From: a virus
Taxonomy: Duplodnaviria; Caudoviricetes
Strand: one strand, 5' to 3'
Length of the DNA stretch: 64,000 nt
Virus record (IMG/VR): IMGVR_UViG_3300024322_000001
Below are positions 20,102-39,747 of the stretch, one piece after another. The stretch's first letter is position 1; each line of letters begins with the position of its first letter. The position numbers and the translations under genes were made by a program. A model generated the notes under the pieces. That model saw nothing but the letters and a program-made list of their open reading frames with translations, did not search any database and was not told where the DNA came from.

Positions 20102-20400
20102 TATTTTTCTTCTATTGTTTGTTCACCTACTTCTATCACAGCTATATCACTGTATTTAGCTTTGGCATTAGTTTTTAAAGCGTCAAAAGCTTCTTTAGCT
20201 TCTTTTTGGCTTATTATCTTTACTTTATAGGTAGCTCTATTATTAGTACTGTCTTTAGAAGCTACAGTACAGGTAGTTACACCAGGTAAAGCACGAATAG
20301 CATCGTCATACCCTTCAGGGCCGTCTTCAGTAAAGGTAACTTGTACCATTGCCTCGTACGTTCTGTACTCTATTTCTAATATAATATCTAATAACTTCAT
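20101..20400 (-). CDS. Small protein with MKLxxIILE leader (putative head-internal)
   Basis: MKLLDIILE leader; DAIRALPGVTT alpha/beta core. Confidence 0.55.
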   Translation of the reverse strand: MKLLDIILEIEYRTYEAMVQVTFTEDGPEGYDDAIRALPGVTTCTVASKDSTNNRATYKVKIISQKEAKEAFDALKTNAKAKYSDIAVIEVGEQTIEEK

Positions 20401-25113: not shown

Positions 25114-25641
25114 TTATGCAGATGCTGCAACAGCACCAGCTATCTCTGCTCCGACTACTGCTATATCTCTTCCTTTTAGTGCTGCTTTTACTGCTCCTAT
25201 AGTAGCGGTTGCTACATTAGCACCTCTAAGAGCTTGCATTGCTCCTATACCTGCTTTGATACCTAATCCTGCTAACATAGCTATAAATAATCCTTTAGCA
25301 ACTAATTCTCTTTTCTTTTCATCTCTTACGAAAGGCTTAATAAAACCTGAGATAGCTTTAACTATGTTAACTTCATTATTATGTGCCCATTTATGAACTG
25401 CATCAGCTTTATCAGCTGCTTTATCTAAACCTAGTTTTTTAAGTCCTTTAGCAGCATACTTACCTAAAACGTCTAGTACTGTATTAGAAGCAAGTGCCCA
25501 TCCTAATATACCTACTACAGATATAACTTCATTAACTTGTCCTTCTTCTCCTTGTTTACCAAACTCGGCTTCCATAGCTTTTGCTAATTCTTGACCTAAT
25601 TGAGTTTCGTCGCTTTCTAATATTATGTGTGCTAATTTCAT
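25114..25641 (-). CDS. Leader-bearing protein with hydrophobic helices (putative ejected membrane-interacting protein)
   Basis: MKLAHIILE, QVNE, then VISVVGILGWALAS and GLFIAMLAGLGIKAGIGAM. Confidence 0.5.
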   Translation of the reverse strand: MKLAHIILESDETQLGQELAKAMEAEFGKQGEEGQVNEVISVVGILGWALASNTVLDVLGKYAAKGLKKLGLDKAADKADAVHKWAHNNEVNIVKAISGFIKPFVRDEKKRELVAKGLFIAMLAGLGIKAGIGAMQALRGANVATATIGAVKAALKGRDIAVVGAEIAGAVAASA

Positions 25642-26219
25642 TATGCTCTTAATATATCATTTATAATAGAATCTAAGTTTTGAAATTTAGATACTTTTAT
25701 TTTACCTTCTGATAATGCTACTGGGTTCATAAATGCACCGTGAGTAGAAGGATTTGAAACAAAATCCCAACATACTAGTTCGAAATCGTCTTGCACTTCT
25801 AATGCACCTTCATTTGTTTGCTGTACTGATCCTGTACCTCTAGATGAGATACCGATTGTATGGCCTGCTTTTATGATTTCTTTTACGATGTTTCCGGAAG
25901 GAGTATTTAATAACTCTACACGTCCCATAAGGTCGTTTCCTTTCCACCATAAGTCTTTTACTATGTGAGAGGCGTTCTTAAGAGAGACAATAGGAGACTC
26001 AGGGTGATCAAGTTCTCCGAATGCATTACCATTCTCTACAAACTCTTTTATGTACTTTGAGCATTCTCTCTCTAAAATAGGCTTACTATATGTACGTCCA
26101 TTTTGGTTTTTAGATACTGCTCTCTGCATAACCCCTTCGACTTCGTATACACCGGGTCTTTCCTTAGATTCTCTAAGAATTGATTTGAATGGTGTTACGT
26201 CTACTAATAATTGTGCCAT
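25641..26219 (-). CDS. gp21: Prohead maturation protease (T4 gp21-like)
   Basis: NQNGRTY, GELDHP, SHIV, TPSG, GISSRGTGS, DFVSNPS. Confidence 0.93.
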   Translation of the reverse strand: MAQLLVDVTPFKSILRESKERPGVYEVEGVMQRAVSKNQNGRTYSKPILERECSKYIKEFVENGNAFGELDHPESPIVSLKNASHIVKDLWWKGNDLMGRVELLNTPSGNIVKEIIKAGHTIGISSRGTGSVQQTNEGALEVQDDFELVCWDFVSNPSTHGAFMNPVALSEGKIKVSKFQNLDSIINDILRA

Positions 26220-26230
26220 GTTGTATTATT

Positions 26231-26641
26231 TTATTGAAAAATATCGTACGCTACTCCTTCGAATACTGAATATGTTAATTTATGTTCAGTTCCTTCTGGG
26301 GTATAGTCCCCATAGAATCCGTCTTCATAGGATACTGGGAATTCTCTGTCTGATTCTTCAGATTTATAATCAGCTACTGTTGATAGTCTGTGTTTCTCTA
26401 ATCGCTTAGCTACTACTGCTGCTGGTTCAGGTTCTCCGATATCTACTTGTCCTCCTCCGAGGCCTGCTGTTCCACCGTCCATTTCAGCTACTATAACATC
26501 TTTAGTTATATCGACACCAAATTTTCGAAAAGCTTGCTCAACAGAGTAATCTGCATCTTCCACTACTTCTTCGTTTAATTGTCTACTGTTAGTAGTTAAG
26601 TTGTTTTCTGTTAAGAACTTTCTTAGGTTAAAATTGTTCAT
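26231..26641 (-). CDS. MNNF-leader protein (putative capsid-internal cargo)
   Basis: MNNFNLRKFLTENNLTTNSRQLNE leader shared with four genes at 35112-37443. Confidence 0.65.
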   Translation of the reverse strand: MNNFNLRKFLTENNLTTNSRQLNEEVVEDADYSVEQAFRKFGVDITKDVIVAEMDGGTAGLGGGQVDIGEPEPAAVVAKRLEKHRLSTVADYKSEESDREFPVSYEDGFYGDYTPEGTEHKLTYSVFEGVAYDIFQ

Positions 26642-26658
26642 TGTGTTTGATTATTAAA

Positions 26659-28968
26659 TTATAATGCTCCGTTGATTGTAGGTGCTGAAAATACTGTTTG
26701 TTTTTCTTCTTCTCCTAAAGGCCTTTCGCCTGAGTTATGAGCATCGATATCTGCTTGAGATATTACTCTAACTTTAGGTTGATCTAATCCTTTAGTAAAC
26801 CCTCCTTTAACAGCAGGTCTTAAATCTTTATTGAATGCTTGTTCAATTGCGGGTGCTAGAAAGCCTCCTACTTTTAAACCTTCTTCATTTCTTATATCTC
26901 CTAGAGTGTTGTATACCTTTTGTATCTTACTTCTAGTTTTATCGTAATAAGATTCAATATCAGTTACAATATCCTGTAGAGCTATAATAGCTTGTTTCAT
27001 TCCTTCGTAGCCTCCGTATGTATCAGAGAATTCTGCTAATGCATTAGTTGCAGCTTCATTTATTACTCCTTCTTCTAATACTTTAAATATAATAGCTTTA
27101 ATATTCTCTTTAACAGCTTCATCTTTACCCATCGCTTTTTTGATAGCTTTGTCTTTAGCTGCCATATAATCATCTTTATCTACATCTCCATCTCCGTCAT
27201 GATCTTTACCTTTAGCTTCTTCTAGGTTCTCAACCATAAATTGAGTTTCTAAATATTCTAATACGTCTTTTTTAGCAAACTCTATCATTCCAGGTTCTGT
27301 CATTGGGCCCATTTTCCATTCTTCCCAAGCTTTAATTAACATATTAACACCTTTGTCAAATAAAGGTCCCATGCTCTCTACATACCCTCCAGTTTCGTAA
27401 TCGTTTTCAGTAACTACTTTACCTCCTTGAGATTTTCTGCGTCTACCTTCGTTTACTCCATTGTCGTCATCCCAAGGACCTTTCATAATATCAACACCAA
27501 TGTTGTAATGATCTCCTATGGCGTACATTACCTCTTCAGCTTCTTCTCTTTCTGAAGTATCGTTTTCTTCAGCTCTGTCTTGAATAAGAGCAATAAACTC
27601 CTGTAGGCTACCTACTCTTTCGTTGATTACTTCTTCAACATCTGCTAAACCTTCATCATCGTCTAAATCTGCTGTCATATCAGTATTAACTGGATCTGAA
27701 CCTTCAAGTTGTTTTCTAACTTTAGAAACACCTTCGTTGAAACTACTTAAAGTCTTTTTAATAGCCGCTCTGAATTTCTTTAAGTTATCTAATACTTCTG
27801 CTTTATTACCTTCTTTAGCAGCATCGATTGCATAAGATAGATGACTACCTTCTGTGTGGTAATTAACATCTTCGAATGAATCAAATAATGCTTGCATTTT
27901 ATCTATCGGTGTGTTTAATCTAACTTTTAATCCTGCTTTGAGCATTCCTTCGTAATCAAAATCACTAGAAAACATTTGACCAAGCTTGTATAACTTGTCA
28001 ATTGATTTCATATCTGTATCTTTACCGTATTTAGCAATTCTAGCCATTTCATCATCAGACATAGCTTCTTTAACAAACTTAGCTTTAGCAGCATCAAAAT
28101 CTCCTTTATGGAGACTATCAACTACTTTTCTACCTAAAGTTTCTAATTGATCTGCATCTAGTGAATGAGGCTTATTAAATCCTTTTAAGTACCCTTGGCC
28201 TATTGCTCCATAATCTGCTGGGTCAATAACATCTTCTGCAGACTTAGCAACTTTTTCTTGCATATAATCAGCTCCTGATTCGTAATTTACTGATAAAAAC
28301 TCTTGAAAGTTATCCATTACGGCTTGCATGCCTTCATCAGAACCATCTGCTTGTTCTTCCCATTCTGGGTGAGTTTTATAAAAGTCGTTAATGATTTCAT
28401 CATCAATTAAACTCTTACCGGTTTTAGGATTAGCATAATATTTTTTAATATAATCAGCTACTGAATCTGCTTGATCATATTCGTTTACTGGTTTAGTATG
28501 ATTTTCTTTTAAATCAGCTTTCTTAAGTCCATTATGAACATCTACTTCATTACCTTTTTTAGGCTCAACCATTTGGTCGTGTTTATCTACCTTAGAAGAT
28601 TCTCCTGCTATTAAGTTAATATAGTGATTAGCATCTTTCTGTAAATTAGCAATTACTTTAATTCTAGCTTTCATGTAATCTTCTTTAGATACATTCCCAG
28701 TAGAGTCTATACCCTGTGCTTCCAGTTCTGCATCAATTCCTCTTTCAACTACATTTATAGGAAATTGATCTGCTAATACATCAATATCTTTCTTAACTTC
28801 TTTCTTTTCAAAAATAAGACTCTTTTGTTTAAGAATAGATACGGAATCTTTATACCCGTTCCATTGAGTGATGAATTGCGGATATGCTTGTCTCATTTGA
28901 CGGACAAATTCTGCTTCTTGAAGTTTACCTTCTAATACCGCATGATATTTTTGTGTTGCTGTTTTCAT
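26659..28968 (-). CDS. Large modular prohead core/internal protein with many [ILVM]xE sites
   Basis: LKE, VNE, MQE, VKE, FNE, INE, VTE, LEE junctions; DHDGDGDVDKDD calcium-binding-type motif. Confidence 0.6.
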   Translation of the reverse strand: MKTATQKYHAVLEGKLQEAEFVRQMRQAYPQFITQWNGYKDSVSILKQKSLIFEKKEVKKDIDVLADQFPINVVERGIDAELEAQGIDSTGNVSKEDYMKARIKVIANLQKDANHYINLIAGESSKVDKHDQMVEPKKGNEVDVHNGLKKADLKENHTKPVNEYDQADSVADYIKKYYANPKTGKSLIDDEIINDFYKTHPEWEEQADGSDEGMQAVMDNFQEFLSVNYESGADYMQEKVAKSAEDVIDPADYGAIGQGYLKGFNKPHSLDADQLETLGRKVVDSLHKGDFDAAKAKFVKEAMSDDEMARIAKYGKDTDMKSIDKLYKLGQMFSSDFDYEGMLKAGLKVRLNTPIDKMQALFDSFEDVNYHTEGSHLSYAIDAAKEGNKAEVLDNLKKFRAAIKKTLSSFNEGVSKVRKQLEGSDPVNTDMTADLDDDEGLADVEEVINERVGSLQEFIALIQDRAEENDTSEREEAEEVMYAIGDHYNIGVDIMKGPWDDDNGVNEGRRRKSQGGKVVTENDYETGGYVESMGPLFDKGVNMLIKAWEEWKMGPMTEPGMIEFAKKDVLEYLETQFMVENLEEAKGKDHDGDGDVDKDDYMAAKDKAIKKAMGKDEAVKENIKAIIFKVLEEGVINEAATNALAEFSDTYGGYEGMKQAIIALQDIVTDIESYYDKTRSKIQKVYNTLGDIRNEEGLKVGGFLAPAIEQAFNKDLRPAVKGGFTKGLDQPKVRVISQADIDAHNSGERPLGEEEKQTVFSAPTINGAL

Positions 28969-29195
28969 AAGTAGTCAACTAATTTAGTATTTGATGGTCG
29001 TTTAGGACGACTAACCTTTTTATATCCTAACTTCTTTAATGCATTTTTAGCTCTATTACCTTTACCAAAAGCAAAGGGTGTAGCATAATTCATTCCCTGT
29101 CCAGGAGTAAATGTAGCTGACCCTCCGGTAACGTTAGCTTCGTCTAACTCAGTCATTACTTCTTTAACTAATGATGTAAGCTCTGATCTTTTCAT
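28965..29195 (-). CDS. Small head-associated protein
   Basis: MKRSELTSLVKEVMTELDE leader, then NYATPFAF and a basic tail; lies between portal and protease. Confidence 0.55.
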   Translation of the reverse strand: MKRSELTSLVKEVMTELDEANVTGGSATFTPGQGMNYATPFAFGKGNRAKNALKKLGYKKVSRPKRPSNTKLVDYL

Positions 29196-30049
29196 TACAG
29201 AGTTTTTAATTCATTAACTAAATCGTAAAATTGCATTAAATTAACCAAGTGGGTGTCGCCAATTTTTTCAGTCTTTTTTACAGGATTGATTGCTTTGGCT
29301 ACTTCCTCTAATTTTATTTTTATTACTTCATCTGTTACTTTAGATGAAAGCTCATTTACCTGAATTCTCAATTTAGTCAATTCTTCATTAACTATAGTGT
29401 GTAAACGTTTTTTTGAATTAACTGAGGTGATAAATTCTTTAAGTATGTTTTTCTGTTCTGGCAGTAAATCTTTATATGTACTGTTAAACTTCTCTAATAA
29501 AATTTTAAACGTTAGTAGTTTAAGATCTTTATCATATTTAGAATACTCTTCGATTAACGTATCTTTAACGTCATTTGTATCTTGAGTTTTATCTGTTAGG
29601 TGTTCTAAAATAGTAACTTTATTGTCTACTAAGTACTTAGGGTCAACTAGCTCTTCATTATTTTGAGCCTCTAATAAACAGTACATAGCAGCTAGTGCTT
29701 TGTAGTCTCTAACTTGGATACTAAAAAACTCATCTACATCATAGTGTTTTTTAATTTCTGATATTAGTTTGTATTTTTGACTTTTGAGAGCATCTTGATT
29801 TAGTTTTCTAGATACTTCAGTAATAGTTGAAACTATTGCTTCTGCTCTTCTCTGTGTTACTCCTTTAGACTTTGTTACTAAGTCGTATAGTTTATATTCT
29901 TTTGCAAGCGAAGTTTTACTTGCATAGAATTCTTTGAGAATACCGACAGCCGGCGATTCTGCTCCAGAGAGAGTATCAGCCGCAATCTGCTTAACTAACA
30001 ATTCAAATATTAGTCCAGTATTTCTATACTTAGAATGCTTTATTTTCAT
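29195..30049 (-). CDS. Prohead core-associated protein (hypothetical)
   Basis: Helical protein directly after portal; own TATTTATA at 30067..30074. Confidence 0.55.
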   Translation of the reverse strand: MKIKHSKYRNTGLIFELLVKQIAADTLSGAESPAVGILKEFYASKTSLAKEYKLYDLVTKSKGVTQRRAEAIVSTITEVSRKLNQDALKSQKYKLISEIKKHYDVDEFFSIQVRDYKALAAMYCLLEAQNNEELVDPKYLVDNKVTILEHLTDKTQDTNDVKDTLIEEYSKYDKDLKLLTFKILLEKFNSTYKDLLPEQKNILKEFITSVNSKKRLHTIVNEELTKLRIQVNELSSKVTDEVIKIKLEEVAKAINPVKKTEKIGDTHLVNLMQFYDLVNELKTL

Positions 30050-30078
30050 CTTATACGTTTACTATATATAAATATGCA

Positions 30079-31968
30079 CTACTTACCTAAATCCTTTATT
30101 TGATCTTCGTTTAATAGTCCCTCGTTGTCCTCACTCGTATCTTTAGTAAAAACAATTTTCTTTAAAAGATCTTCGTTTTTAGCTAAAATAGTCTTTGCTA
30201 CTGTGTTTTCATTGACATTATCGGCATCGCTAGGAAAACCACCTTTCATACCATGTTGACCTAAAGGATCACGTCCTCCTAGTCCTGCTGTAGTACCGTA
30301 TACAGAAGCTTTTTCTTTTGGTCTTCCGCCTTCTGGGCCTGGCTGTCCCCATTCGCTATACCCTGCTGGTAGATTAGCTTGTTCTCCACCTTTTGGTGTA
30401 GCTGTTGCTCTTCTACCGTACATAGAGGCTAAGTCGTGTGGTGTACCGTAAGTTACTCCAGATGAAGCTGGGTCGTTACCTTCTGCTTCTATCTGTGCTC
30501 TTCTAAATTTACGTTTTTCATCTTCTACCATTAGATCTCTCATTTCCATATAAGCATCTTCTGATAAGTCAAATATATTTTCGTAAATATAATCTGTAGA
30601 GAATAATTTAGAATCCTTCATTTGAGTAGCTAAATCTACTTTTTCTTTAAGTAGTGCAACTTTCTCTTGTTCAAATATAATAGAAGGAGTAGTTAACTTG
30701 ATTTCAAAGTTAGTAAGTGATTCACCTGAGAATCCTTGAGTGTATAAGTGAACTAGAGCTATCTTAGTAAGCTCTGATTCCATGATTCTTTGAATACGTT
30801 CTACTGTTCTTGCAAATCTAATATCTTCTGCAGCTAAAGTAGCTTTACCACTTAAGTCACCTTCGTAGCCAAAGTATGCTTTAGGTATCTTTAATGCTGC
30901 AAATAACTTAGATTGTAAGTATTGAACGTCATTAGTACCATCGTAATCTAATCCTTTGGTAGTTTCTATTTTAGTAGCTGTATCTCCTCCTCGTACAGGT
31001 AGATAGAAATCTTCCATCATATTCTGCATATTGAACTTCAAGTTATATTGACCTGTTTCTGGATCAACATAAGGAGTTTTCTTCATTCCATTGATAGTCT
31101 TTTGCATAAACTGCTCAACTTCATTTGGAGGAATAGAACCTACATTAATATAAAACATTCTCTTTTCTGGTGCTCTCATGATTCTATGAATCAACATTGC
31201 ATCTTCCATTAAAGAGGTTTGTTTAAATATTTTTCTAGCTGGCTCTAAATAAGATCTACCGTAAGGTAGGTAATGAGTATCAGATATTAATCTGAAGTGA
31301 GCCATTTCGTAATTATCAATCGTAATATTATTATTACGTTTTCTTCCTCCAGGCATATAGTTAGAATCAGTAGATGCTGCTATACCGTCAGGATCTAATT
31401 CAAATTCTACTTTTTGAGGATTTTCAGGATCGTTACCTTCATGTCTAGCGATGTGGTAAACTGTATAGGGTAAGACGTTATAAACACCGTACTTCTCTGC
31501 TATCTCTAGCTTTAAGAAAAAGTCTCCGTATTTAACCATATTTCTAGTCCAAGACCAGAGGTTAAACTCAATATTTAAAACGTCATAAAATAAGTTGTAA
31601 AGTACTCTTTGAATATTTTCATCAGAAGATTTAATTCCTAGTACTTCATTTTGATCATTCTTTACTGTTGCTTCATCTGCTATAATATCGAGTGCAGAAG
31701 CTATAATTGGATCAGTATCCATTGCCTCGTAATCAGAATATAATTGAATACGTAGAGTCTGATAATTAAGGTTTGGATTAAATATGTTTGCTTTGTTGTA
31801 AGTATATAAACGAGTAAACCTATCCATTAAAGAATTGGTTTGATACTTACCTGTCGTCTGTATATTATTTGTGTCTACAACTTTTAGTTGTGTTCCACCC
31901 ACATTACGTATTACTACGTCGGTAGAAAAAAGTCTTTGTAAACGTCCAAATAGCGATTTATCTGCCAT
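30079..31968 (-). CDS. gp20: Portal protein (T4 gp20-like)
   Basis: MEDAMLIHRIMRAPEKRMFYINVG, MMEDFYLPVRG, LFAALKIP, EDIRF. Confidence 0.93.
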   Translation of the reverse strand: MADKSLFGRLQRLFSTDVVIRNVGGTQLKVVDTNNIQTTGKYQTNSLMDRFTRLYTYNKANIFNPNLNYQTLRIQLYSDYEAMDTDPIIASALDIIADEATVKNDQNEVLGIKSSDENIQRVLYNLFYDVLNIEFNLWSWTRNMVKYGDFFLKLEIAEKYGVYNVLPYTVYHIARHEGNDPENPQKVEFELDPDGIAASTDSNYMPGGRKRNNNITIDNYEMAHFRLISDTHYLPYGRSYLEPARKIFKQTSLMEDAMLIHRIMRAPEKRMFYINVGSIPPNEVEQFMQKTINGMKKTPYVDPETGQYNLKFNMQNMMEDFYLPVRGGDTATKIETTKGLDYDGTNDVQYLQSKLFAALKIPKAYFGYEGDLSGKATLAAEDIRFARTVERIQRIMESELTKIALVHLYTQGFSGESLTNFEIKLTTPSIIFEQEKVALLKEKVDLATQMKDSKLFSTDYIYENIFDLSEDAYMEMRDLMVEDEKRKFRRAQIEAEGNDPASSGVTYGTPHDLASMYGRRATATPKGGEQANLPAGYSEWGQPGPEGGRPKEKASVYGTTAGLGGRDPLGQHGMKGGFPSDADNVNENTVAKTILAKNEDLLKKIVFTKDTSEDNEGLLNEDQIKDLGK

Positions 31969-31993
31969 TAATGTGTATTTTTATATAAATAGT

Positions 31994-33568
31994 CTATTTT
32001 AATAACCACGAAATATCTTCTGTGGTTCGTCCATTATCTATAATATAAGGATTATTTTGCGGACTTCCAACTGATTTTATTATAGCTTTATTCTTAGCAT
32101 TTAGATTAGTAAATGAAGATAATTGAGCTCTAGCTAGGTCCATCCCTTGTTGTCTTAATCTTAATGCAGTATCTCTAACATATAGAGCAGTTGCTGCAGA
32201 GATAAGTAAATCATCATTATAATTAGTTTGTGCTTGAGGTTTTCCGTTTTTCCATACAAATACTCTCATCTCTCCTAAAAGCCTTTTAGACTGTATAGTA
32301 ACGCCTCTTTCTCTAATATACTCAATCATCTTAGCAATTACTAAAGGTCTTGTTCTTACGGACATAGTAAAGCCTGGGACTAATTTATCTCTTTCATACT
32401 TGCTCATATAAGACTCTACAGTTTCCATTTGAGATGTAGAACTATAGTATAAATTACTATATTGACGTTCCATCACCTGTTCTATTGTAGCCCATCCTAT
32501 ATTTGCGTTTTCTATTACTAACAATGCTTGATTGTATTCTGTCGCTATTCCTACTAAGACATTTCCGTAATCCTTAGGAGATAATTTACCTTTATATTCT
32601 GCTACTTGAGTACAAGTTTCTACGTCAAATACGTGAAATGCAGAATAATCCGCAGAGTCTCCTCTAGCAACATCTGCTACTACCATATATGATTTTGTGT
32701 AGTCAACTCCTTCCCATATCCATAAATTACCATCTACACCTCTTCTCTCTAAAGGATCTTTTAAGTATGTTTGTTCATAAAACATCATGTCGTCTGGTTC
32801 AAATACTGTATCACCAGAAGCTAAGAAATCGCAATCACATTCCTGTCCTGCCATTCTAGGACCTAAATCTGAGTCTTGTTTTTCTCGCCATTCTTGGTCC
32901 CTTTCAGGATGTACTGTCCATGGTAATCTTATAGGTAAAAATGAATTCTCACCACTTTCTGCTTTATCCCAAGTCTGATGAAACCAGTTACCAATTCCGT
33001 TAGGAGTTGATAATGCCATACACTGTCCACCTGTTGCTAAGGTTTGTTGTGCTGCTGTAAACGTTTCTTGAATGTTATCAATAAAGGCTGCTTCATCGAT
33101 AAGCAGTAGTGATACTGCCTCTGACCTTGCGGCATCGGCGTTAGAAGATTTAGCTGTAATTTTCGATCCATTCTTTAGTCTAAGTGATAATTTATTTTTC
33201 TCTACTGCTGGTAATCTTAACCATTTAGGTAGTTGATCATACATAAACATAGTCTTAGATACTAAGTTTCTTGCAGTAGCTTGAGTTGTTGCTAGAGCAA
33301 GTACGTTCTTATCCTTATGAAACAACATAAGCCACAGAGAGTAACCTGCAGCTAAAGTGGATATACCTAACTGTCTTGACTTGAGAGTAATTAGATATTG
33401 ATGATCTCTAAATAAATGTAATACTTTATCCTGAAATGGATATAAATTAAATAATATACGTCCTCTTGTAGGATGCTGTATATAGCAATACTTCCTCATG
33501 AAGTAGGCCGGATCTTTAGCACACTTAAAGTACTCTTGTGCTATTATTTTTTTTATATCTTTTGCCAT
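31994..33568 (-). CDS. gp17: Terminase large subunit (T4 gp17-like)
   Basis: KSRQLGIST, LLIDEAAF, STPNG, ADVARG...DYSA, NDDL. Confidence 0.95.
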   Translation of the reverse strand: MAKDIKKIIAQEYFKCAKDPAYFMRKYCYIQHPTRGRILFNLYPFQDKVLHLFRDHQYLITLKSRQLGISTLAAGYSLWLMLFHKDKNVLALATTQATARNLVSKTMFMYDQLPKWLRLPAVEKNKLSLRLKNGSKITAKSSNADAARSEAVSLLLIDEAAFIDNIQETFTAAQQTLATGGQCMALSTPNGIGNWFHQTWDKAESGENSFLPIRLPWTVHPERDQEWREKQDSDLGPRMAGQECDCDFLASGDTVFEPDDMMFYEQTYLKDPLERRGVDGNLWIWEGVDYTKSYMVVADVARGDSADYSAFHVFDVETCTQVAEYKGKLSPKDYGNVLVGIATEYNQALLVIENANIGWATIEQVMERQYSNLYYSSTSQMETVESYMSKYERDKLVPGFTMSVRTRPLVIAKMIEYIRERGVTIQSKRLLGEMRVFVWKNGKPQAQTNYNDDLLISAATALYVRDTALRLRQQGMDLARAQLSSFTNLNAKNKAIIKSVGSPQNNPYIIDNGRTTEDISWLLK

Positions 33569-33575
33569 AACTATC

Positions 33576-35099
33576 CTATATTGGATTTATTTTTTCTATT
33601 TCTAAAGTGCCTTGAGTATTACCATTGTTCCTTGCACTTATCTGGACGAAGTGTGGTTTACCTCGTTTTAGTATGTGAAATAATATTCTTACTCCTCCGT
33701 AACTATCTGTATCTAATATCTTAATATCTTTATAATCCCCTTCTTTATTGTAGAGAACTATATTAGTACCTTGAGGGTATGATTCTACTGTAGCATTAGT
33801 TCCTGATGAGTTACCAATTATTTTAAAAAAACCAGGGTTAACATCAGTTAAAGACATTGCAAAGCCTGCTAATGCAACTACTGCGTCAGCTATTTTACCC
33901 GGTGGAAACTTCTTAAATAGGAATTCAATAGCTTTCAAAGCCGCATATTTTCCTCTAAGTTGATCTATATCAAAATCTTCTAAACTTATACTTTCTAAGC
34001 TGTACGACACATTATCTGCAGATCCAACTAAAGAGCTTATTTTACTCCTTAATGGTACGATTGCTTCTTTAAACTGATCTACATCGTACCCTTTTTCATC
34101 ATTAGTTAAATTATAATCTGATCTAACTTTAGAGTATTTAGCAAGAAGACCTTTTGCTTTTCCACCTTGTGCTTTTTGCTGTTTTAAAGAAACTGCTACT
34201 AAAGAAGCTTCTTCACCTGCTACGTTTGTAGTACCTCCCCATTCTTGCACAAAGAAATTATTAATTATTTCAATATTGTCTGCAGAATTAATATCGGGTA
34301 TACCTTTTAATTGTACGTATAAATCTCCGGGGCACCATTTGTCTTTATCATATCCGGTAAGTTGTTTGGCCTTACTTCTTATCTCATCAAATTTTCCTGA
34401 ACGTATAAGTTTAGCTTTAGGGTATTTTTCCTTAATAGCAAGAGCACTAGATAGAGGTTGGTTAACAAAGTTTACATGCGAGTTTTTAGGTTCAAGCGCT
34501 GATAAGTATGAAACAATTTTTTTGGTGCTAGTTGAATCTTCTCCAGGAATTTCTGCTGGCATTGTACTTATTAAACGTTCTGCTCTTTCTGAAATGTTTT
34601 CTACTGTAAATGGTGAAGTAATATCACTAACATAGAATAAAGAAACTAAACCTTCTTTTACATCTGTATCTGCACTATCTTCTGCTGCTGTTCCTTTTAC
34701 TATAATCGAATAATCATTTCCCCTAAACGTGAGTAATGATTGTCCTACTGAAGAACTCGATGATCTGGCTTTAGTGTAAGAGGTTATGTCTTCTTCTTGG
34801 TTAGCTAGTTTTTCTAATTCTGTAAATACCTCTCCTCTAAGTGTGCTTGAACTTGCTCCTCTAGATGGAATTTCAGAAAATTTTAAAACAATCTTAGATG
34901 TACCTGCAGTAGCTTCTATATCACCGTATCTGTTTATTTTACTCTTAATAAGGTTTACTAGATCTTTATTTTCATTTAATAAAGGAATAAAACCAAACAT
35001 AGATTCAAACAAAGCCATATCCTCTTGACTATTAATGTCAGGATATCCTTTTTTGGTCTTATATGACCATTCTAATATGACTCTATCGATAAGATTCAT
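33576..35099 (-). CDS. Putative PD-(D/E)XK nuclease-like protein with xILE leader
   Basis: DKWCPGDLY...VAVSLKQ resembles a PD...(S/E)xK catalytic core; N-terminal RVILE and PLLNE sites. Confidence 0.45.
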   Translation of the reverse strand: MNLIDRVILEWSYKTKKGYPDINSQEDMALFESMFGFIPLLNENKDLVNLIKSKINRYGDIEATAGTSKIVLKFSEIPSRGASSSTLRGEVFTELEKLANQEEDITSYTKARSSSSSVGQSLLTFRGNDYSIIVKGTAAEDSADTDVKEGLVSLFYVSDITSPFTVENISERAERLISTMPAEIPGEDSTSTKKIVSYLSALEPKNSHVNFVNQPLSSALAIKEKYPKAKLIRSGKFDEIRSKAKQLTGYDKDKWCPGDLYVQLKGIPDINSADNIEIINNFFVQEWGGTTNVAGEEASLVAVSLKQQKAQGGKAKGLLAKYSKVRSDYNLTNDEKGYDVDQFKEAIVPLRSKISSLVGSADNVSYSLESISLEDFDIDQLRGKYAALKAIEFLFKKFPPGKIADAVVALAGFAMSLTDVNPGFFKIIGNSSGTNATVESYPQGTNIVLYNKEGDYKDIKILDTDSYGGVRILFHILKRGKPHFVQISARNNGNTQGTLEIEKINPI

Positions 35100-35111
35100 T
35101 ATATTTACTTT

Positions 35112-36110
35112 TTAATGATCGTCTTCGTCTTCGTCTTCATCATCACTATAAAATTGGTCATAATCAGTTCCAAAACTCATAGCAAGATCTTGCATAAGCC
35201 AATTAGGTACCTCATCACCTTCGAATTTACCTCCTTTAGCATAAGATCTTAAATCATTTTGAAAAGATTCAACTGTATCATAATACTGTTCTATACTTTC
35301 ATACTCGTGTCCCTGTTCATCAGCAAGACCTAATAATTCTTGGGTAGCAGTAAGGTACTTATTATAATTAGGATCAAGTACATAATGTTCAAAGCTTTTA
35401 TCATTTTCAAAATCATATCCACTTACATAAAAAGCACCTTCTTGTGGTTTATCGCCTAATACTTTATATCCCTTACCGTGTGAAGGGCTAGAGGGATCAA
35501 ACCATTGTTCTTCTTCAAATAAGAGGCCTTCAGCTAAATAAGCTTTTTTCAATTGATGTTGCATAGCTTCTCTTTCTTCCCTGTCATACTGAAATGAATT
35601 GGGGATTATATGATCAAAATCGTATGCATTTTTTATTTTTCCAAATTGTCTAACGTAGCGTTCTAAATCTTCTTGTGTATCAGTAACACCGTAAGGGTTA
35701 AGGTAAACATCTACAAATTTATCAAAAGCTTTTTTTTGACCTTTATCTAACCCACTTAAATCAACATTAGATAAATCATGTCTTTTTCTTGGTGCTGATG
35801 GGTTACTGTCTCCAGCCATTTCATCGTTATAGTAATCAACTGCCATATCTACGATATCACCAGAAGGTACATCTTCTTCTTTTTCATCAGAGTAATATTC
35901 TACAGAACTATCTATGATTGCTTTTAAATCTTTATCAGAAATATCTGGTAATTGTCTTTTAATACCTGCTTCTACTTCTGCTTTATAAGCAGGATCATAG
36001 ATGGCATCATTAACCTCATCAAAATCGTAAGTTAATTCTTCTTTTAATAGCTTACTATTAGAAGTAAGTTTATTTTCTTTTAAAAATTTTCTTAGGTTAA
36101 AGTTATTCAT
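35112..36110 (-). CDS. MNNF-leader cassette gene 4 (acidic, probably multi-domain)
   Basis: MNNFNLRKFLKENKLTSNSKLLKE; internal YLAEGLLFEE site. Confidence 0.7.
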   Translation of the reverse strand: MNNFNLRKFLKENKLTSNSKLLKEELTYDFDEVNDAIYDPAYKAEVEAGIKRQLPDISDKDLKAIIDSSVEYYSDEKEEDVPSGDIVDMAVDYYNDEMAGDSNPSAPRKRHDLSNVDLSGLDKGQKKAFDKFVDVYLNPYGVTDTQEDLERYVRQFGKIKNAYDFDHIIPNSFQYDREEREAMQHQLKKAYLAEGLLFEEEQWFDPSSPSHGKGYKVLGDKPQEGAFYVSGYDFENDKSFEHYVLDPNYNKYLTATQELLGLADEQGHEYESIEQYYDTVESFQNDLRSYAKGGKFEGDEVPNWLMQDLAMSFGTDYDQFYSDDEDEDEDDH

Positions 36111-36129
36111 TGTATTTGCTTTAAATCTT

Positions 36130-36426
36130 TTAATATTCTACTTCTTTTCCTTCAGCGTTAAATTTATATATAACTGCATTATCTCCATCTCTCATTTCGA
36201 TAGCTACTACTTCATCCTCTTCTCTCTCATTTTCTGGGACTGGTGTGATAGTATCTATTCTCATACCGTCGTAGTTGGTGTATTCTCCTACTGTATATAC
36301 CTCTCCGGTTGGAAAAGTAACAGAATTAATAATTTCTTTTTTAGTAAATTTTACTTCACTTAAAAGTTTAGTAGAGTTAGTATCTCTATTTTCTATTAAA
36401 AATTTTCTTAAATCAAAGTTATTCAT
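36130..36426 (-). CDS. MNNF-leader cassette gene 3
   Basis: MNNFDLRKFLIENRDTNSTKLLSE. Confidence 0.7.
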   Translation of the reverse strand: MNNFDLRKFLIENRDTNSTKLLSEVKFTKKEIINSVTFPTGEVYTVGEYTNYDGMRIDTITPVPENEREEDEVVAIEMRDGDNAVIYKFNAEGKEVEY

Positions 36427-36462
36427 TGTATTTGTTTTTATATATTTAGACTACTAATTATC

Positions 36463-36726
36463 TTAATCCTCAGGACCTTCGATCTTATCTCCTTTTCTAA
36501 CTACAAGCCAATCTTTAATTCTATCATGGTACTTATCATCTACATCATCCAATGCAACTAATTTACCGTGTTTATCAGAATAGTATAGATCTGCAGGGGC
36601 AATTTCGCCAGGGAAATAAAGTGTTATTCCTGGGGTTTCATTAAGTTCATCTTCATTTTCTACTGCTCTACTATTAGAGGTAAGTTTATTTTCAGTTAAA
36701 AATTTTCTTAAATCAAAGTTATTCAT
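36463..36726 (-). CDS. MNNF-leader cassette gene 2
   Basis: MNNFDLRKFLTENKLTSNS...ELNE. Confidence 0.7.
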   Translation of the reverse strand: MNNFDLRKFLTENKLTSNSRAVENEDELNETPGITLYFPGEIAPADLYYSDKHGKLVALDDVDDKYHDRIKDWLVVRKGDKIEGPED

Positions 36727-36753
36727 TTTATTTATTTTTATTTGATGTTTATA

Positions 36754-37443
36754 CTAATCTAAATCTCCTAAAGAGTTGAGAAAGTAATTAGCTATTTCAA
36801 TTCCATCTTCATCGTCTCTCTCTTCAAAGTATTCTAAGTATTGATCTGCAGAAAGAATAAGAGCTTGGACATCATCAATACCGTCTTTTCTAAACGGCTT
36901 AGTTCCCATTATAATTTTTCTTCCTTGAGGTGTAGACTTATACATATCGGTTAACTTTTTAGCTACTTTCAAGTATTTCGGATCTCCAGTCTCTGGTTGA
37001 TGTACAGGTTTCACTGGTTTACTTGCTTTTTTCCAAACTTTAACAGCTCGTGTAATCCACAAACGATTACCATAGTTGTCTAATCCATCAAAATATTTTA
37101 CTTCTCCATTTTCATCTTTTACTAAATCCCTTGTTCCTGTGTGACCAATTTTTTTAGTATGTGATTCTTTCCTTTTATTTTTATAATAATCTCTTACTTC
37201 TTCTTCTGAATTCAACTTCATAATTTCATCAGCATAGAATTGATAATCATACTTAGAATTGTACGGAACTGGGAATGCACGGCCGTAACTTTCATCTTCC
37301 CACTTAATCAGCGCTATTTGTTGAGGTGTTGCTCCTGAGATATTTACTGTATAATCTGCAATACCACTAGACGTATATGTATCTGCACTATTAGAAGTAA
37401 GTCTATTTTCTGTTAAGAATTTTCTTAAATCAAAGTTATTCAT
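36754..37443 (-). CDS. MNNF-leader cassette gene 1
   Basis: MNNFDLRKFLTENRLTSNS. Confidence 0.7.
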   Translation of the reverse strand: MNNFDLRKFLTENRLTSNSADTYTSSGIADYTVNISGATPQQIALIKWEDESYGRAFPVPYNSKYDYQFYADEIMKLNSEEEVRDYYKNKRKESHTKKIGHTGTRDLVKDENGEVKYFDGLDNYGNRLWITRAVKVWKKASKPVKPVHQPETGDPKYLKVAKKLTDMYKSTPQGRKIIMGTKPFRKDGIDDVQALILSADQYLEYFEERDDEDGIEIANYFLNSLGDLD

Positions 37444-37458
37444 TTTATTAATTTTATA

Positions 37459-39747
37459 TTAAGCTTCTGGATCTTCTCCTGGTTCTTCAAAGTCTATTGG
37501 TTCTCCGCCTAAGTCTGCACCTCCGGCATCATCTGCTGGTGCTTCATCTCCTCCAGCGTCTCCACCAAGAGCATCAACTCCTGCATCATCTCCTCCGCCT
37601 CCTGCATCAGAACCAGGGAAGTCGCCTCCTCCACCTCCACCGGAACTTCCAGTATCGGTATCAGCAGCTTCTGCATCTCCAGACCCGCCCATTGGTCCTT
37701 CTTTGTAAAGCCTAGCCAACTTATCTAAAGCTTGTTGATAATCATCTATCTTATCGATGTAATAGCGTTTACCTAGTATCTGAGCTTCAAATGCTGTTCC
37801 AGTCCACTTAAGAATATAAGATTGACCGTTTTTAATGTTCACCCTAAATGATGATGGTCTAGGCGAAATCCAGTCAATACTGGTTACAAATTCTTTAAAC
37901 TGATCAGTTTGTAGCTTGATTATAGCTTTTTTTAATGTTGGGAACTTCCCTAGTATAATATCTGTTGCATCCTCTAATATAGTCTCTTTAGGAGCATCCA
38001 TATCAGGTTCTTCTTCTGGTACTGTTTCTTCTTTTATTACTCCTTCTTGATAATACTCATCATCGTCGTAATCATCATAGTCATCGTAATCATCTTCTTC
38101 TTCAAATTCAGGCTCATAATCAAATATACCTCCTAAAGTATTCTTGGTGTACTCTCCTTCTTTTGACTCTATATAGTCTAAGATAGAAATTAGCACATCT
38201 TTGATTGTTTTTTCGTAATCAGTACCTTCTTTAAATATTTTTGCTACTACAGCTCTTAATGGATGATTTGCGTTAACTAAAAATGAGTGAGCAGGTCCGG
38301 CAGTTTCAATACCATATCCTGTAAAATATTCATCACCGTCGTTATAGTATCTATAAATAATTCTATTGATAGCTCTTAACATTTCACCTTCTACTGTTTC
38401 TGCATCTCCGTTTCCAGGTACTAACTTATCGTATAAAGGTTCGTTTCTATCTTCTAATTCTTTACCTACAAATTCAGTAACTACATCTTCAGTAGTATAA
38501 GCATCGTATCTATCTTGATCACTTTGTGCTGCATTTAGCATATCGTTTAGGTCATGATCTTTTTGGAAAGCAGAATTTTTTAAAGTTACTGCGTTAGGTA
38601 AATCATCTCCTCTACCTATGTGGAGTTCAAAATCCTGTCCTTCTTTATAGTTAGATTGTAAATGATCAACTACATCCTGTATTCTATCTAAATCGTACCC
38701 AAAGGTAACTAATTCCTCATATGCTTCATTTATCTTTCCTACTGCTTGATCATACGACATATTCTTGTTATATACTGATGCTGCTTTTTCAATAGCATTA
38801 TCAATCTTATTTAATTGATCACCGTACATATCAGCTACTGGTCCTCCTGTTGGTTCGATTTCTGGATCGTTTTCCATATCGCTCATTACTTGAGCTCTTT
38901 TAATCTTTAACTTACGAACAATCTCTCTTGCTTTCTCTTCTTTTCTTTGTCCGCTAGCATATGCTCTTGCAGCTGCTTTGCCTTCAGGAGATTTTTTATA
39001 AGCGTCTAATTTTTTCATATCATCAGCTCTCATCTTAGCAACTCTTGCTCTCATAAGAACTGGATCGTTATAGTCTAATGCTTCTTGTACAGGTTTTACT
39101 CTGTCGCTAGGAAATCTTTTAACTGTGCTACCGTCGAATCGTACAAAGGTTTTGTCACCTTCTACTTTTTCAACAGAACCAGTACCGAACATTCTACCGT
39201 CTTTATCGTATACATGAACTAAGTCATAATGATCGTTGATACCTTCTTCTATTGAAGTAAAAGCTTTCTCAATACCTTCCATCATTCTCTGCATCTTAAG
39301 CAGATTATACTGTTCAGGTCTCTCTGTTCTTAAGTATCTTTGTAATTTTCTGAAATTAGTTCTGGTTAACTCGAAAAACTCTCTAGCTGCTTCATCTTTT
39401 CTAATATCATCAGACCCCATTAACTTTTTAATATCGCCTATAATATCTGAGAAATTTTTATAAAGAGAACCAAATGAAGGTAGTGTTATTACCTTATGTC
39501 CAATAGTACCTGTTGTAGTATTTTTCTCTGAAGCTTTAAAGTATGTTGACATATCACTACTAAAGAAATCGTGTTTACCATCAAACTTTGGTTCACCATA
39601 CCTTTTGACGATACCTGCTCTTTGCTTATCCGTAAGATCCTCCCATTGAGTAGTTCTGTTACCAGTCTCTTTTTCAATTTGAGCTTTTGACATTTCATCA
39701 ATGACTTCGCTGTACGATTCTAATATTAGTTTTTCAAGCTTATGCAT
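37459..39747 (-). CDS. Modular polyprotein-like head-internal protein
   Basis: MHKLEKLILE leader; IDE, IEE, VQE, INE, VTE, IKE, ILE junctions; Gly/Asp-rich tail. Confidence 0.6.
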   Translation of the reverse strand: MHKLEKLILESYSEVIDEMSKAQIEKETGNRTTQWEDLTDKQRAGIVKRYGEPKFDGKHDFFSSDMSTYFKASEKNTTTGTIGHKVITLPSFGSLYKNFSDIIGDIKKLMGSDDIRKDEAAREFFELTRTNFRKLQRYLRTERPEQYNLLKMQRMMEGIEKAFTSIEEGINDHYDLVHVYDKDGRMFGTGSVEKVEGDKTFVRFDGSTVKRFPSDRVKPVQEALDYNDPVLMRARVAKMRADDMKKLDAYKKSPEGKAAARAYASGQRKEEKAREIVRKLKIKRAQVMSDMENDPEIEPTGGPVADMYGDQLNKIDNAIEKAASVYNKNMSYDQAVGKINEAYEELVTFGYDLDRIQDVVDHLQSNYKEGQDFELHIGRGDDLPNAVTLKNSAFQKDHDLNDMLNAAQSDQDRYDAYTTEDVVTEFVGKELEDRNEPLYDKLVPGNGDAETVEGEMLRAINRIIYRYYNDGDEYFTGYGIETAGPAHSFLVNANHPLRAVVAKIFKEGTDYEKTIKDVLISILDYIESKEGEYTKNTLGGIFDYEPEFEEEDDYDDYDDYDDDEYYQEGVIKEETVPEEEPDMDAPKETILEDATDIILGKFPTLKKAIIKLQTDQFKEFVTSIDWISPRPSSFRVNIKNGQSYILKWTGTAFEAQILGKRYYIDKIDDYQQALDKLARLYKEGPMGGSGDAEAADTDTGSSGGGGGGDFPGSDAGGGGDDAGVDALGGDAGGDEAPADDAGGADLGGEPIDFEEPGEDPEA

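What the first reader, a model, noticed from the sequence alone, without database searches (positions are those of the whole stretch)
26231..37443. Cassette array of unrelated genes sharing a conserved MNNF[DN]LRKFLxEN(K/R)LTSNS leader
Seen: four tandem genes (35112-37443; 87-332 aa) and a fifth beside the prohead protease (26231-26641) share a ~19-aa leader, usually followed by a second LxE site, then completely unrelated and mostly acidic bodies. The fifth copy differs mainly at synonymous sites, indicating peptide-level selection. The tandem copies are near-identical DNA and mosaic: 36426 has the upstream CAAATACA of 36110 but the FDLRK codons of 36726/37443. Established: KFLTE mirrors the T4 gp23 cleavage site (SFLTE|A) and the T4 internal-protein targeting sequence (MKTYQEFIAE); the T4 IPI locus is a variable cassette of injected anti-restriction proteins. 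Inference: a plug-and-play array where recombination at the leader captures new cargo that is packaged, matured by the protease and injected. The acidic bodies are candidate anti-defence proteins or DNA mimics.
Basis: partly seen in the sequence, partly recalled or inferred. Interest (0 to 1): 0.9.

Follow-up and report, generated by a model that had tools for sequence, protein, structure and literature searches.

The report
Shared capsid-loading tag on phage cargo genes
A T4-like phage of marine Flavobacteriia puts the same 24-residue tag, bounded by the cutting motif of its own head protease, on five unrelated small genes. This tag is probably an undescribed equivalent of the T4 peptide that loads proteins into the capsid, but no packaging or cutting has been measured.

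Summary
Five minus-strand genes start with MNNF[DN]LRKFLxEN, and their bodies show no detectable similarity to one another. Four bodies are strongly acidic.

The genes lie in a T4-type head module. It contains a Peptidase_S77 prohead protease, a gp23-like capsid protein, a portal and TerL.

The tag is about 24 residues long and has two [LIV]xE sites, FLxE|N and a second one 12 residues later. A profile of the tag finds 1,495 protein clusters in public metagenomes. Among cultured phages it occurs only in Flavobacterium phage immuto.

Close relatives (TerL 95-96% identical) carry different sets, numbers and orders of tagged genes. The same body occurs behind two different tag variants. The 332-aa gene is a fusion that keeps a truncated second tag at its junction. 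Half of the best database hits carry a second, internal or C-terminal copy, usually preceded by LxE-G.

The best reading is a modular prohead-targeting propeptide, analogous but not homologous to the T4 capsid-targeting sequence, on fast-exchanging cargo cassettes.

Packaging, cleavage, injection and any anti-defence role remain untested. Two body folds matched nothing known.

The scan has noted analogous tags in other T4-like phages, but not this one. I class it as a new variant of a known kind.

The parts
36754..37443 (-). Tagged cargo gene 1 of the tandem array (229 aa). The tag is residues 1-19 and has no second LxE site. The body is near neutral (pI 5.75).
   Evidence: Only 6 homologous clusters were found, and one of them (P0202) is fused to a further tag plus cargo.
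36463..36726 (-). Tagged cargo gene 2 (87 aa, body pI 4.4).
   Evidence: Homologues of 76 aa are the only array member in L018 and L087.
36130..36426 (-). Tagged cargo gene 3 (98 aa, body pI 4.3).
   Evidence: Homologues 92-96% identical are in L029, L046 and L062.
35112..36110 (-). Tagged cargo gene 4 (332 aa, body pI 4.2). It is a fusion of tag, module A (about aa 25-192), a truncated second tag and module B.
   Evidence: Most homologues are 193-199 aa and cover module A only. Others carry module B alone or in the order B-A.
35505..35546 (-). Remnant of a short-type tag inside the 332-aa gene (KKAYLAEGLLFEEE, aa 189-202). It retains LAE|G and FEE sites.
   Evidence: BLASTP aligns query residues 189-322 with residues 7-116 of proteins that start MDNFDLKKYLAEGKLFEQE.
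26231..26641 (-). Fifth tagged cargo gene (136 aa, body pI 4.25). It lies between the 769-aa head-module protein and the prohead protease.
   Evidence: This slot holds homologues in L015, L058 and L060, other bodies in L045, L003 and L044, nothing in L080, and a tag scar fused to the upstream gene in L050, L068, L085 and L091.
25641..26219 (-). Prohead protease of the T4 gp21 family (Peptidase_S77), the presumed processing enzyme.
   Evidence: Pfam PF03420 at 1.3e-35. PDB 5jbl at 1.3e-24, with His and Ser present where the solved chain has Ala.
22352..23935 (-). Major capsid protein, gp23-like. The candidate maturation site MVLE50|NQ has the same Asn after the Glu as the tag's FLxE|N.
   Evidence: T4 gp23 at 9e-32. 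Query residue 63 aligns with gp23 residue 74.
23959..24984 (-). Scaffold-like acidic protein with conserved ends and a hypervariable middle. Its N-terminus is MANKDLFKQAIAE|A.
   Evidence: Alignment A6; position between the protease and the capsid gene.
33576..35099 (-). Conserved anchor gene on the downstream side of the array (507 aa, starts MNLIDRVILE|W).
   Evidence: 97-99% identical in L029 and L084, while the array beside it differs.
37459..39747 (-). Anchor gene on the upstream side of the array (762 aa, starts MHKLEKLILE|S). Its C-terminal ~190 aa are conserved in relatives.
30079..33568 (-). Portal (30079-31968) and large terminase (31994-33568). They give the context and a yardstick of relatedness.
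   Evidence: Immuto annotation; Portal_T4 and Terminase_6N hits on the homologues in L098.

Best explanation
The shared peptide is a modular propeptide that targets proteins to the prohead. It has a docking core (F-D/N-L-R/K-K-F/Y-L) that ends in a first protease site, FLxE|N. A spacer (KLTxNS[KR]x) follows, and then a second site, [LIV]xE|.

Proposed mechanism: proteins carrying the tag are built into the prohead core during assembly. The gp21-type S77 protease then cuts the tag off, using either of two redundant sites. The freed body stays in the head and leaves with the DNA, or is expelled.

Because the tag is the only common part, recombination in or next to it swaps, stacks and fuses cargo cassettes. 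This produces variable arrays at fixed slots (beside TerL, beside the protease, before the primase) and polyprotein-like forms in which internal tags are preceded by LxE|G.

What is shown: the tag, its sites, the protease family, peptide-level selection, cassette turnover and fusion junctions. What is inferred by analogy with the T4 capsid-targeting sequence: targeting, cleavage and delivery. The role of the cargo (anti-defence or take-over) is a guess.
For: 1. Context. The genes lie in a T4-type head operon with gaps of 7-36 nt, next to an S77 protease, a gp23-like capsid protein, a portal and TerL.

2. Cleavage motif. T4 gp21 cuts after L/I-x-E, and the 10-residue T4 capsid-targeting sequence MKTYQEFIAE ends in such a site. 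In T4, residues 4 and 7 matter for targeting and residues 8 and 10 for processing (PMC9026906; bioRxiv 10.1101/2021.01.19.427310). Aligned on the Glu, the tag core D-L-R-K-F-L-T-E puts L, F, L and E at those four positions.

3. Second site. It is present 4-16 residues downstream in 197 of 202 copies, and at +12 in 160 of them. The background is 29%.

4. Internal copies. 48 of 81 are preceded by an LxE within 4 residues (EALQEG-FDLRKFL, KAELKEG-FDLRNFL). 27 of 81 lie within 25 residues of a C-terminus. This matches the C-terminal propeptide of T4 Alt (PMC9026906).

5. Leader-cargo boundary. The same body (72-89% identical) follows a long tag in the window and a short tag (MDNFDLKKYLAEGRLFKE) elsewhere. 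Both are joined at the same point, KE|ELTYDFDE.

6. Peptide-level selection. There are 77 distinct DNA versions of the 11-codon core. Entropy at codon positions 1, 2 and 3 is 0.26, 0.08 and 0.70 bits.

7. Turnover. Relatives with TerL 95-96% and p507 97-99% identical carry different arrays. The 115 tagged proteins fall into 37 body families. A profile search finds 1,495 clusters at E<=1e-3.

8. Restricted to phages. The pattern hit 94 viral-contig loci, against one true hit in 185,579 prokaryote genomes.

9. Shared site form. The capsid protein's likely maturation site (VLE|N) has the same Asn after the Glu as the tag.

10. Wider habit of this phage. [LIV]xE ends at residue 8-13 in 16 of the 58 other ORFs, against 9% expected (p = 4e-5).
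Against: - No proteomic or biochemical datum exists for this phage clade. Every functional step rests on analogy.
- There is no sequence homology to the T4 capsid-targeting sequence. The tag is 2.4 times longer.
- Most cargo is strongly acidic, whereas the T4 internal proteins are basic. Acidic proteins fit poorly next to packaged DNA.
- In relatives, tagged genes also lie among replication genes (immuto_3, immuto_179), in a lysis cassette with a membrane-like segment (L009, L048) and beside clamp and clamp-loader genes (L079).
- [LIV]xE is a short motif in Glu- and Leu-rich proteins.
- Part of the statistics is circular. Loci were selected by the core pattern, and database hits by a profile that already contains the second Glu.
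Confidence: 0.6

Rival explanations
1. The tagged proteins are sacrificial prohead-core or filler components. They are loaded through the tag, cut by the protease and expelled before or during DNA packaging, like scaffold fragments. They are not delivered effectors, and their variability reflects weak constraint rather than an arms race.
For: Bodies are acidic, like the scaffold's hypervariable acidic middle. T4 core proteins gp22, gp67 and gp68 are cut into fragments that leave the head (PMC9026906). Many bodies are small, lineage-restricted and lack any known domain.
Against: Several bodies are well conserved over their whole length among relatives; the 229-aa body has long invariant stretches. 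Module A of the 332-aa gene folds with pLDDT 75-90. Some bodies are basic or carry membrane-like segments. Maintaining 1-4 such genes at three or more slots suggests selected functions.
Confidence: 0.15
2. The peptide is a docking motif for some other conserved machine and has nothing to do with capsids. One candidate is a sliding-clamp (PIP-box-like) binding peptide, N-x-x-L-x-x-F-L. Others are a tag for a chaperonin, RNA polymerase or a cytoplasmic protease.
For: The spacing N-F-D-L-R-K-F-L resembles the PIP-box Q-x-x-[LIM]-x-x-[FY]-[FY] (from my own knowledge). It occurs at extreme N- or C-termini, as clamp-binding motifs do. Tagged genes sit next to polymerase/SSB, primase and clamp/clamp-loader/GroEL genes in relatives.
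Against: Position 1 is Asn and position 8 is Leu, so the canonical consensus is not met. In the window, only the five small unknown genes carry the motif; in immuto, only four genes annotated as hypothetical or evidently misnamed carry it, not its annotated polymerase, SSB, primase or helicase genes. This rival does not explain the conserved flanking [LIV]xE sites, the +12 second site or the LxE-G before internal copies. Hundreds of unrelated acidic proteins all binding one replisome part has no precedent.
Confidence: 0.12
3. The conservation is at the DNA or RNA level, as a translation-initiation region, promoter or recombination site comparable to the promoter-stem-loop shuffling elements of T4-like phages. 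The peptide would be a by-product.
For: The tandem copies are nearly identical in DNA (1-3 synonymous differences). Leaders within a locus differ less than leaders between loci (0.258 versus 0.318 synonymous differences per codon; 3 of 2000 resamples reached this). The region is A/T-rich and unstructured, which favours initiation.
Against: There are 77 DNA versions with variation concentrated at third codon positions. In-frame internal copies without a start codon and C-terminal copies exist. Rfam gives no match. The near-identity of the tandem copies is largely what strong A/T codon bias plus local gene conversion would give.
Confidence: 0.03

Closest known systems
Phage T4 capsid-targeting sequence (CTS) on internal proteins IPI, IPII, IPIII and Alt, removed by the gp21 prohead protease, together with the hypervariable internal-protein loci of T-even phages
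   Same: A short peptide is shared by otherwise unrelated proteins. It ends in hydrophobic-x-Glu. The phage encodes a gp21-family (S77) protease. Cargo genes vary between close relatives. Hydrophobic or aromatic residues sit at the positions that matter for targeting and processing in T4. T4 Alt also has a C-terminal propeptide (PMC9026906, PMC3012670).
   Different: There is no sequence homology. The tag is 24 residues with two sites, not 10 residues with one. It also occurs internally and at C-termini, preceded by LxE-G. Cargo is mostly acidic rather than basic. Tandem arrays lie inside the head operon. The clade is different (Immutovirus-like phages of Flavobacteriia). Nothing has been tested experimentally.
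Propeptides of inner-body and ejection proteins of giant phages (phiKZ gp175, SPN3US), cut after S/A/G-x-E
   Same: Many head-internal proteins are processed by a diverged gp21-type protease. Propeptides carry redundant cleavage sites (PMC9026906, PMC7411985).
   Different: Those propeptides are long and family-specific. They are not one portable short tag shared by unrelated cargo.
Encapsulin cargo-loading peptides
   Same: A short portable peptide at either end of diverse cargo proteins docks them inside an HK97-fold shell (from my own knowledge).
   Different: The encapsulin peptide is not removed by a protease, there is no DNA packaging or delivery, and the sequence is unrelated.
Phage P1 Dar anti-restriction proteins packaged into the head
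   Same: These are head-internal proteins co-injected to protect incoming DNA. P1 is discussed together with capsid-targeting sequences in PMC9024508, a paper I listed but did not read.
   Different: P1 has a fixed small set of large proteins with ordered incorporation. It has no shared cleavable tag and no cassette array.

Membership tests
T4-type capsid-targeting sequence / internal-protein system | The phage encodes a gp21-family (Peptidase_S77) prohead protease | tested here: met
   PF03420 at 1.3e-35. 5jbl at 1.3e-24, with His and Ser at the positions that are Ala in the solved chain.
T4-type capsid-targeting sequence / internal-protein system | The shared terminal peptide ends in an L/I-x-E protease site | tested here: met
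   FLxE is invariant in 85 leaders. A second [LIVM]xE is present in 197 of 202 copies. Only the motif was tested, not cleavage.
T4-type capsid-targeting sequence / internal-protein system | Sequence homology of the peptide to the T4 CTS (MKTYQEFIAE) | tested here: not met
   Comparing the two by eye shows only a pattern-level match (hydrophobic-x-x-aromatic-aliphatic-small-Glu). The lengths are 24 versus 10 residues. The T4 sequence is from bioRxiv 10.1101/2021.01.19.427310.
T4-type capsid-targeting sequence / internal-protein system | The peptide is necessary and sufficient for encapsidation and is removed in the prohead | not testable with these tools
   This needs virion proteomics and reporter fusions.
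T4-type capsid-targeting sequence / internal-protein system | Unrelated cargo proteins whose genes vary between close relatives | tested here: met
   The five window bodies are unrelated. Arrays differ in L029, L046, L062, L084, L080, L018 and immuto.
T4-type capsid-targeting sequence / internal-protein system | Cargo consists of small basic DNA-associated proteins | tested here: not met
   96 of 115 bodies have pI below 5.5. The window bodies have pI 4.2-5.75.
PIP-box / sliding-clamp-binding motif | Consensus Q-x-x-[LIM]-x-x-[FY]-[FY] (consensus from my own knowledge) | tested here: not met
   The core is N-F-[DN]-L-R-K-F-L. Position 1 is Asn in 74 of 77 versions and position 8 is Leu in 77 of 77.
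Known RNA element or known protein domain covering the leader | A match in Rfam, Pfam or PHROGs | tested here: not met
   Rfam gave none. Pfam and PHROGs gave none for the five proteins.

The most novel reading that the evidence does not exclude
The tag is a position-independent cargo-loading peptide. With it, a large clade of marine Flavobacteriia phages packs an open-ended, rapidly exchanged repertoire of mostly acidic proteins (more than a thousand clusters) into the capsid. The phages then inject these proteins with the DNA as ready-made counter-defence or take-over factors. Recombination at the tag itself would be the engine that captures, stacks and fuses new cargo.
Probability: 0.3. Interest if true: 0.8.

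Novelty: new variant of a known kind. Interest (0 to 1): 0.62.

Why it matters
If the tag really loads proteins into the head, three things follow.

- It gives a sequence handle for listing the injected proteome of an abundant, mostly uncultured group of ocean phages. At least 1,495 protein clusters carry it, and nearly all lack annotation.
- It points to a pool of candidate anti-defence proteins of Bacteroidota phages.
- It offers a portable tag for loading foreign proteins into such capsids, as the T4 capsid-targeting sequence is already used.

The fusion junctions and leader swaps also show directly how such cargo sets evolve.

A cultured phage, immuto on Flavobacterium sp. LMO8, carries four tagged genes. 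The key tests are therefore ordinary bench work.

Tried and rejected
- **Complex prediction.** Leader alignment against scaffold alignment gave score 0.00 and no verdict. This is neither support nor evidence against.
- **Fold of the 332-aa protein.** Mean pLDDT was 62.7, with module A at 75-90 and module B below 50. Foldseek against PDB found nothing at E<=0.001. VIA-align gave a best Z of 6.5 on residues 36-96. Ten of the 50 rows were phage head-to-tail adaptor proteins, but this is below the level that is meaningful for helical bundles.
- **Fold of the 229-aa protein.** Mean pLDDT was 63.4, with no significant PDB match; the best Z was 6.1.
- **ESM Atlas** gave no usable hit for the 229-aa protein.
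- **Pfam** on 128 database hits gave only scattered single hits: WYL_2 twice, and TIM, OmpA and YfdX once each. A second scan of 10 hits found nothing.
- **PHROGs** found no family for any of the five proteins.
- **Literature search** for the motif strings returned no paper. No virion proteome of immuto turned up.
- **Whole genome of the window** is not held, so copies outside the 64 kb could not be counted.
- **Signal peptide or lipoprotein leader** was rejected, because the tag is charged and hydrophilic.
- **Chance recurrence** was rejected: there are five identical 11-residue cores, and the window has no copy in any other frame.


Full report
**1. What is in the window**

All long ORFs of the window are on the minus strand. 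Between 22.3 and 39.8 kb they form a T4-type head module:
- a major capsid protein, 22352-23935 (T4 gp23 at 9e-32)
- an acidic scaffold-like protein, 23959-24984
- a 175-aa Gly/Ala-rich protein
- a Peptidase_S77 prohead protease, 25641-26219 (Pfam 1.3e-35; T4 gp21 structure 5jbl at 1.3e-24, with His and Ser at the two positions that are Ala in the solved chain)
- a 769-aa protein, then two small conserved proteins
- the portal, 30079-31968
- TerL, 31994-33568
- a 507-aa protein, the four-gene array, and a 762-aa protein

Gaps between the genes from the 762-aa gene through the array to TerL are 7-36 nt. I infer that they are transcribed with the head genes.

The nearest cultured phage is Flavobacterium phage vB_FspM_immuto (160 kb, genus Immutovirus). 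Its portal gene is 76% identical in DNA.

**2. The observation**

Five ORFs start with MNNF[DN]LRKFLxEN, and there is no other copy in any frame.

- The bodies have no pairwise similarity; the best E-value is 0.1.
- Body pI is 4.2-4.4 for four of them and 5.75 for the fifth.
- The four tandem leaders differ from each other by 1-3 synonymous codons. The fifth differs from them by 5-8 of 10-12 comparable codons.

The 'mosaic' of upstream bases and FD/FN codons is visible but rests on few characters.

**3. The tag is widespread and selected as a peptide**

A degenerate DNA pattern for the 11-residue core found 94 loci in IMG/VR. In nearly all of them the motif lies at the N-terminus of an ORF.

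Among 121 tagged ORFs there are 77 different DNA versions of the core. Variation is concentrated at third codon positions: entropy is 0.26, 0.08 and 0.70 bits at positions 1, 2 and 3. The pattern allowed only synonymous change in the fixed codons, so this shows that synonymous change is frequent. It does not show that amino-acid change is rare.

A less biased view comes from a 31-position profile of 85 leaders, searched against 1.84 billion representative proteins. It gave 1,495 clusters at E<=1e-3 and 81 at E<=1e-10.

The tag is essentially confined to phages:
- Among 50,697 cultured phage records, only the immuto phages carry it. Immuto has four copies.
- In 185,579 prokaryote genomes the pattern hit seven places. 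Only one is a real leader, on a MAG contig.
- No paper in the library contains the motif.
- Pfam, PHROGs and Rfam have nothing for it.

**4. Anatomy of the tag**

The consensus is M-(x)-N-F-D/N-L-R/K-K-F/Y-L-x-E-N-K-L-T-x-N-S-K/R-x-L/I-x-E.

- **Second site.** A second [LIVM]xE lies 4-16 residues after the first Glu in 197 of 202 copies, and exactly at +12 in 160. In random windows of the same proteins the figure is 29%. This number is inflated because the profile contains that Glu. However, in the alignment of leaders chosen by the core alone, the majority consensus already shows a Glu at +12.
- **Short variant.** A short form (MDNFDLKKYLAEGRLFKE) has the second site at +6.
- **Structure.** In both folded proteins, residues 6-12 form a short helix.
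- **Comparison with T4.** gp21 cuts after L/I-x-E. The T4 capsid-targeting sequence is the first 10 residues of IPIII, MKTYQEFIAE. Residues 4 and 7 matter for targeting and 8 and 10 for processing (PMC9026906; bioRxiv 10.1101/2021.01.19.427310). Aligned on the Glu, D-L-R-K-F-L-T-E puts Leu, Phe, Leu and Glu at those four positions. This is a resemblance, not homology.
- **Capsid protein site.** Query residue 63 aligns with gp23 residue 74. From my own knowledge of T4, gp23 is matured by a cut between E65 and A66. That cut therefore corresponds to about residue 54 of the window protein. The conserved MVLE50|NQ lies next to it, with the same Asn after the Glu as the tag's FLxE|N.

**5. The tag is a module, not only a leader**

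Of the 150 best representatives, 78 carry two copies. Of the 81 internal copies:
- 48 are preceded within four residues by an LxE, typically EALQEG-FDLRKFL or KAELKEG-FDLRNFL.
- 30 are preceded by a Met, which indicates in-frame fusion of two neighbouring genes.
- 27 lie within 25 residues of the C-terminus, for example ...FDLRKFLAENRK-stop.

In every context the docking core is therefore bracketed by protease-type sites. T4 Alt likewise loses propeptides at both ends (PMC9026906). Many of the internal copies come from one large family, the immuto_194-like proteins. They are not all independent events.

**6. Cassette turnover and fusion at the tag**

Array content between the same two anchor genes differs among relatives whose TerL is 95-96% and whose 507-aa protein is 97-99% identical to the window's:

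| Genome | Tagged genes in the array |
|---|---|
| window | 229, 87, 98, 332 aa |
| L029 | 98, 226, 115, 73 aa |
| L046 | 98, 226, 157, 105 aa |
| L084 | (332-like), 73, 104 aa |

More distant relatives (TerL 88-93% identical) differ further:

| Genome | Tagged genes in the array |
|---|---|
| L062 | 98, 73 aa |
| L080 | one gene of 386 aa |
| L018, L087 | one gene of 76 aa |

Immuto has two tagged genes, on the other side of the 507-aa homologue.

The slot beside the protease holds homologues of the 136-aa gene, other bodies, nothing, or a 14-residue tag scar fused to the end of the upstream gene. A third slot, before the primase, is occupied in immuto and in about ten loci but is empty in the window.

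The 115 tagged proteins fall into 37 body families.

The 332-aa gene is itself a fusion:
- Most homologues are 193-199 aa and cover module A only. Many of them carry the short tag, joined to the body at the same point as the window's long tag (KE|ELTYDFDE).
- Other homologues carry module B alone, or carry both modules in the order B-A.
- The window's junction KKAYLAEGLLFEEE aligns with residues 7 onward of an N-terminal short tag.

Two further cases point the same way. One homologue of the 229-aa body continues into another tag plus cargo. In L098 (TerL 60% identical) a tagged protein has a body homologous to a segment of the window's 1028-aa multi-module ORF.

Leaders within a locus are slightly more alike in synonymous positions than leaders between loci: 0.258 versus 0.318 differences per codon, and 3 of 2000 resamples reached this. 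That is compatible with local duplication or gene conversion. It is modest evidence.

**7. What does not fit neatly**

- In relatives, tagged genes also lie elsewhere:
  - between the polymerase and SSB genes
  - before the primase
  - after the tail sheath and tube genes
  - in a lysis cassette, where the protein has a membrane-like segment
  - next to clamp, clamp-loader and GroEL genes
- T4's own internal-protein and alt genes are also scattered (from my own knowledge), so scattering is no contradiction. It does keep alive the idea of a docking motif for another machine.
- The core has PIP-box-like spacing (N-x-x-L-x-x-F-L) but fails the canonical consensus. In the window, only the five small unknown genes carry it.
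- The acidity of the cargo contrasts with the basic T4 internal proteins. It leaves open that these proteins are expelled core components rather than injected effectors.

**8. Cargo function**

Nothing could be learned about it:
- There are no Pfam or PHROGs families.
- The 229-aa family is narrow, with 6 clusters.
- The models are of medium quality, and no fold match is significant.
- The anti-defence or DNA-mimic idea remains a guess. Its only motivation is hypervariability, acidity and the T4 IPI*/GmrSD precedent (PMC3012670).

A complex prediction of the leader with the scaffold gave no verdict.

**9. Verdict**

The best explanation is a modular, protease-bracketed prohead-targeting propeptide on exchangeable cargo cassettes, with confidence about 0.6. 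It works like the T4 capsid-targeting system but is not a sequence relative of it.

It differs from T4 in five ways: length, two sites, position independence, acidic cargo and arrays inside the head operon.

The scan has reported analogous tags and protease-punctuated polyproteins in other T4-like phages.

I rate it a new variant of a known kind, with interest 0.62.

Noticed in passing
window 20101-20400, 25114-25641, 33576-35099, 37459-39747, 45931-46476, 48796-49737, 50333-51115, 52081-52509, 52516-52860: A second recurrent N-terminal motif, M(K)Lxx[IV][IL]LE ending at residue 9-10, sits on otherwise unrelated proteins, including a P-loop protein. [LIV]xE ends at residue 8-13 in 16 of the 58 ORFs that lack the main tag, against 9% expected (p = 4e-5). 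It resembles the 10-residue T4 capsid-targeting sequence more closely than the main tag does.
   Followed up: partly
window 23959-23990 (scaffold C-terminus); L001 24039-24503 (immuto_188); L098 11800-12450: The scaffold's conserved C-terminal motif RMQKLAGII(K) recurs at the N-terminus of other proteins, as MKKQ..E..R.QKLAGIITE|S followed by unrelated bodies. This may be a third class of head-targeting tag that copies the scaffold's own end.
   Followed up: partly
window 33576-35099 and its homologues in L046, L062, L069, L003, L044: Only the first ~37 residues of the 507-aa protein upstream of TerL (MNLIDRVILEWSYKTKKGYPDINSQEDM...) are conserved (70-97% identity). The remaining 340-470 residues are replaced in several relatives. 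It lies where a small terminase would be expected.
   Followed up: no
window 26659-28968 (about aa 520-580); L001 10710-10937 (immuto_202); body family 2 of the tagged proteins: A domain GGYVE.MGP.FD...L...W.EWK.GP.TEP occurs inside the 769-aa head-module protein. In relatives it forms the body of tagged genes placed before the primase.
   Followed up: partly
L009 1001-1603; L048 794-1285; L075 35-127: These tagged proteins have a Gly/Ala-rich hydrophobic segment right after the tag. They lie between a lysozyme-like gene and holin- or spanin-like genes. They could be ejection or membrane proteins, or a link between the tag and lysis.
   Followed up: no
window 37444-37458, 36727-36753, 36427-36462: The short spacers in the array begin with or contain TATAAA-type strings (TATAAAAT, TATAAACA, ATATATAAAAA) directly after the preceding stop codon. 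This is reminiscent of the T4 late-promoter box TATAAATA. I did not test it.
   Followed up: no
L001 17546-18547 (immuto26A_194) and other immuto features: The 333-aa tagged protein of immuto is annotated in GenBank as 'cob(I)alamin adenosyltransferase'. The scaffold homologue is annotated 'DNA polymerase phi-like protein'. Both names look spurious given the sequences.
   Followed up: no
window 35112-36110, model residues 36-102: The helical bundle at the start of module A gave ten phage head-to-tail adaptor proteins among the top 50 structural rows, with best Z 6.5. This is below significance for helical bundles and is only a lead.
   Followed up: no
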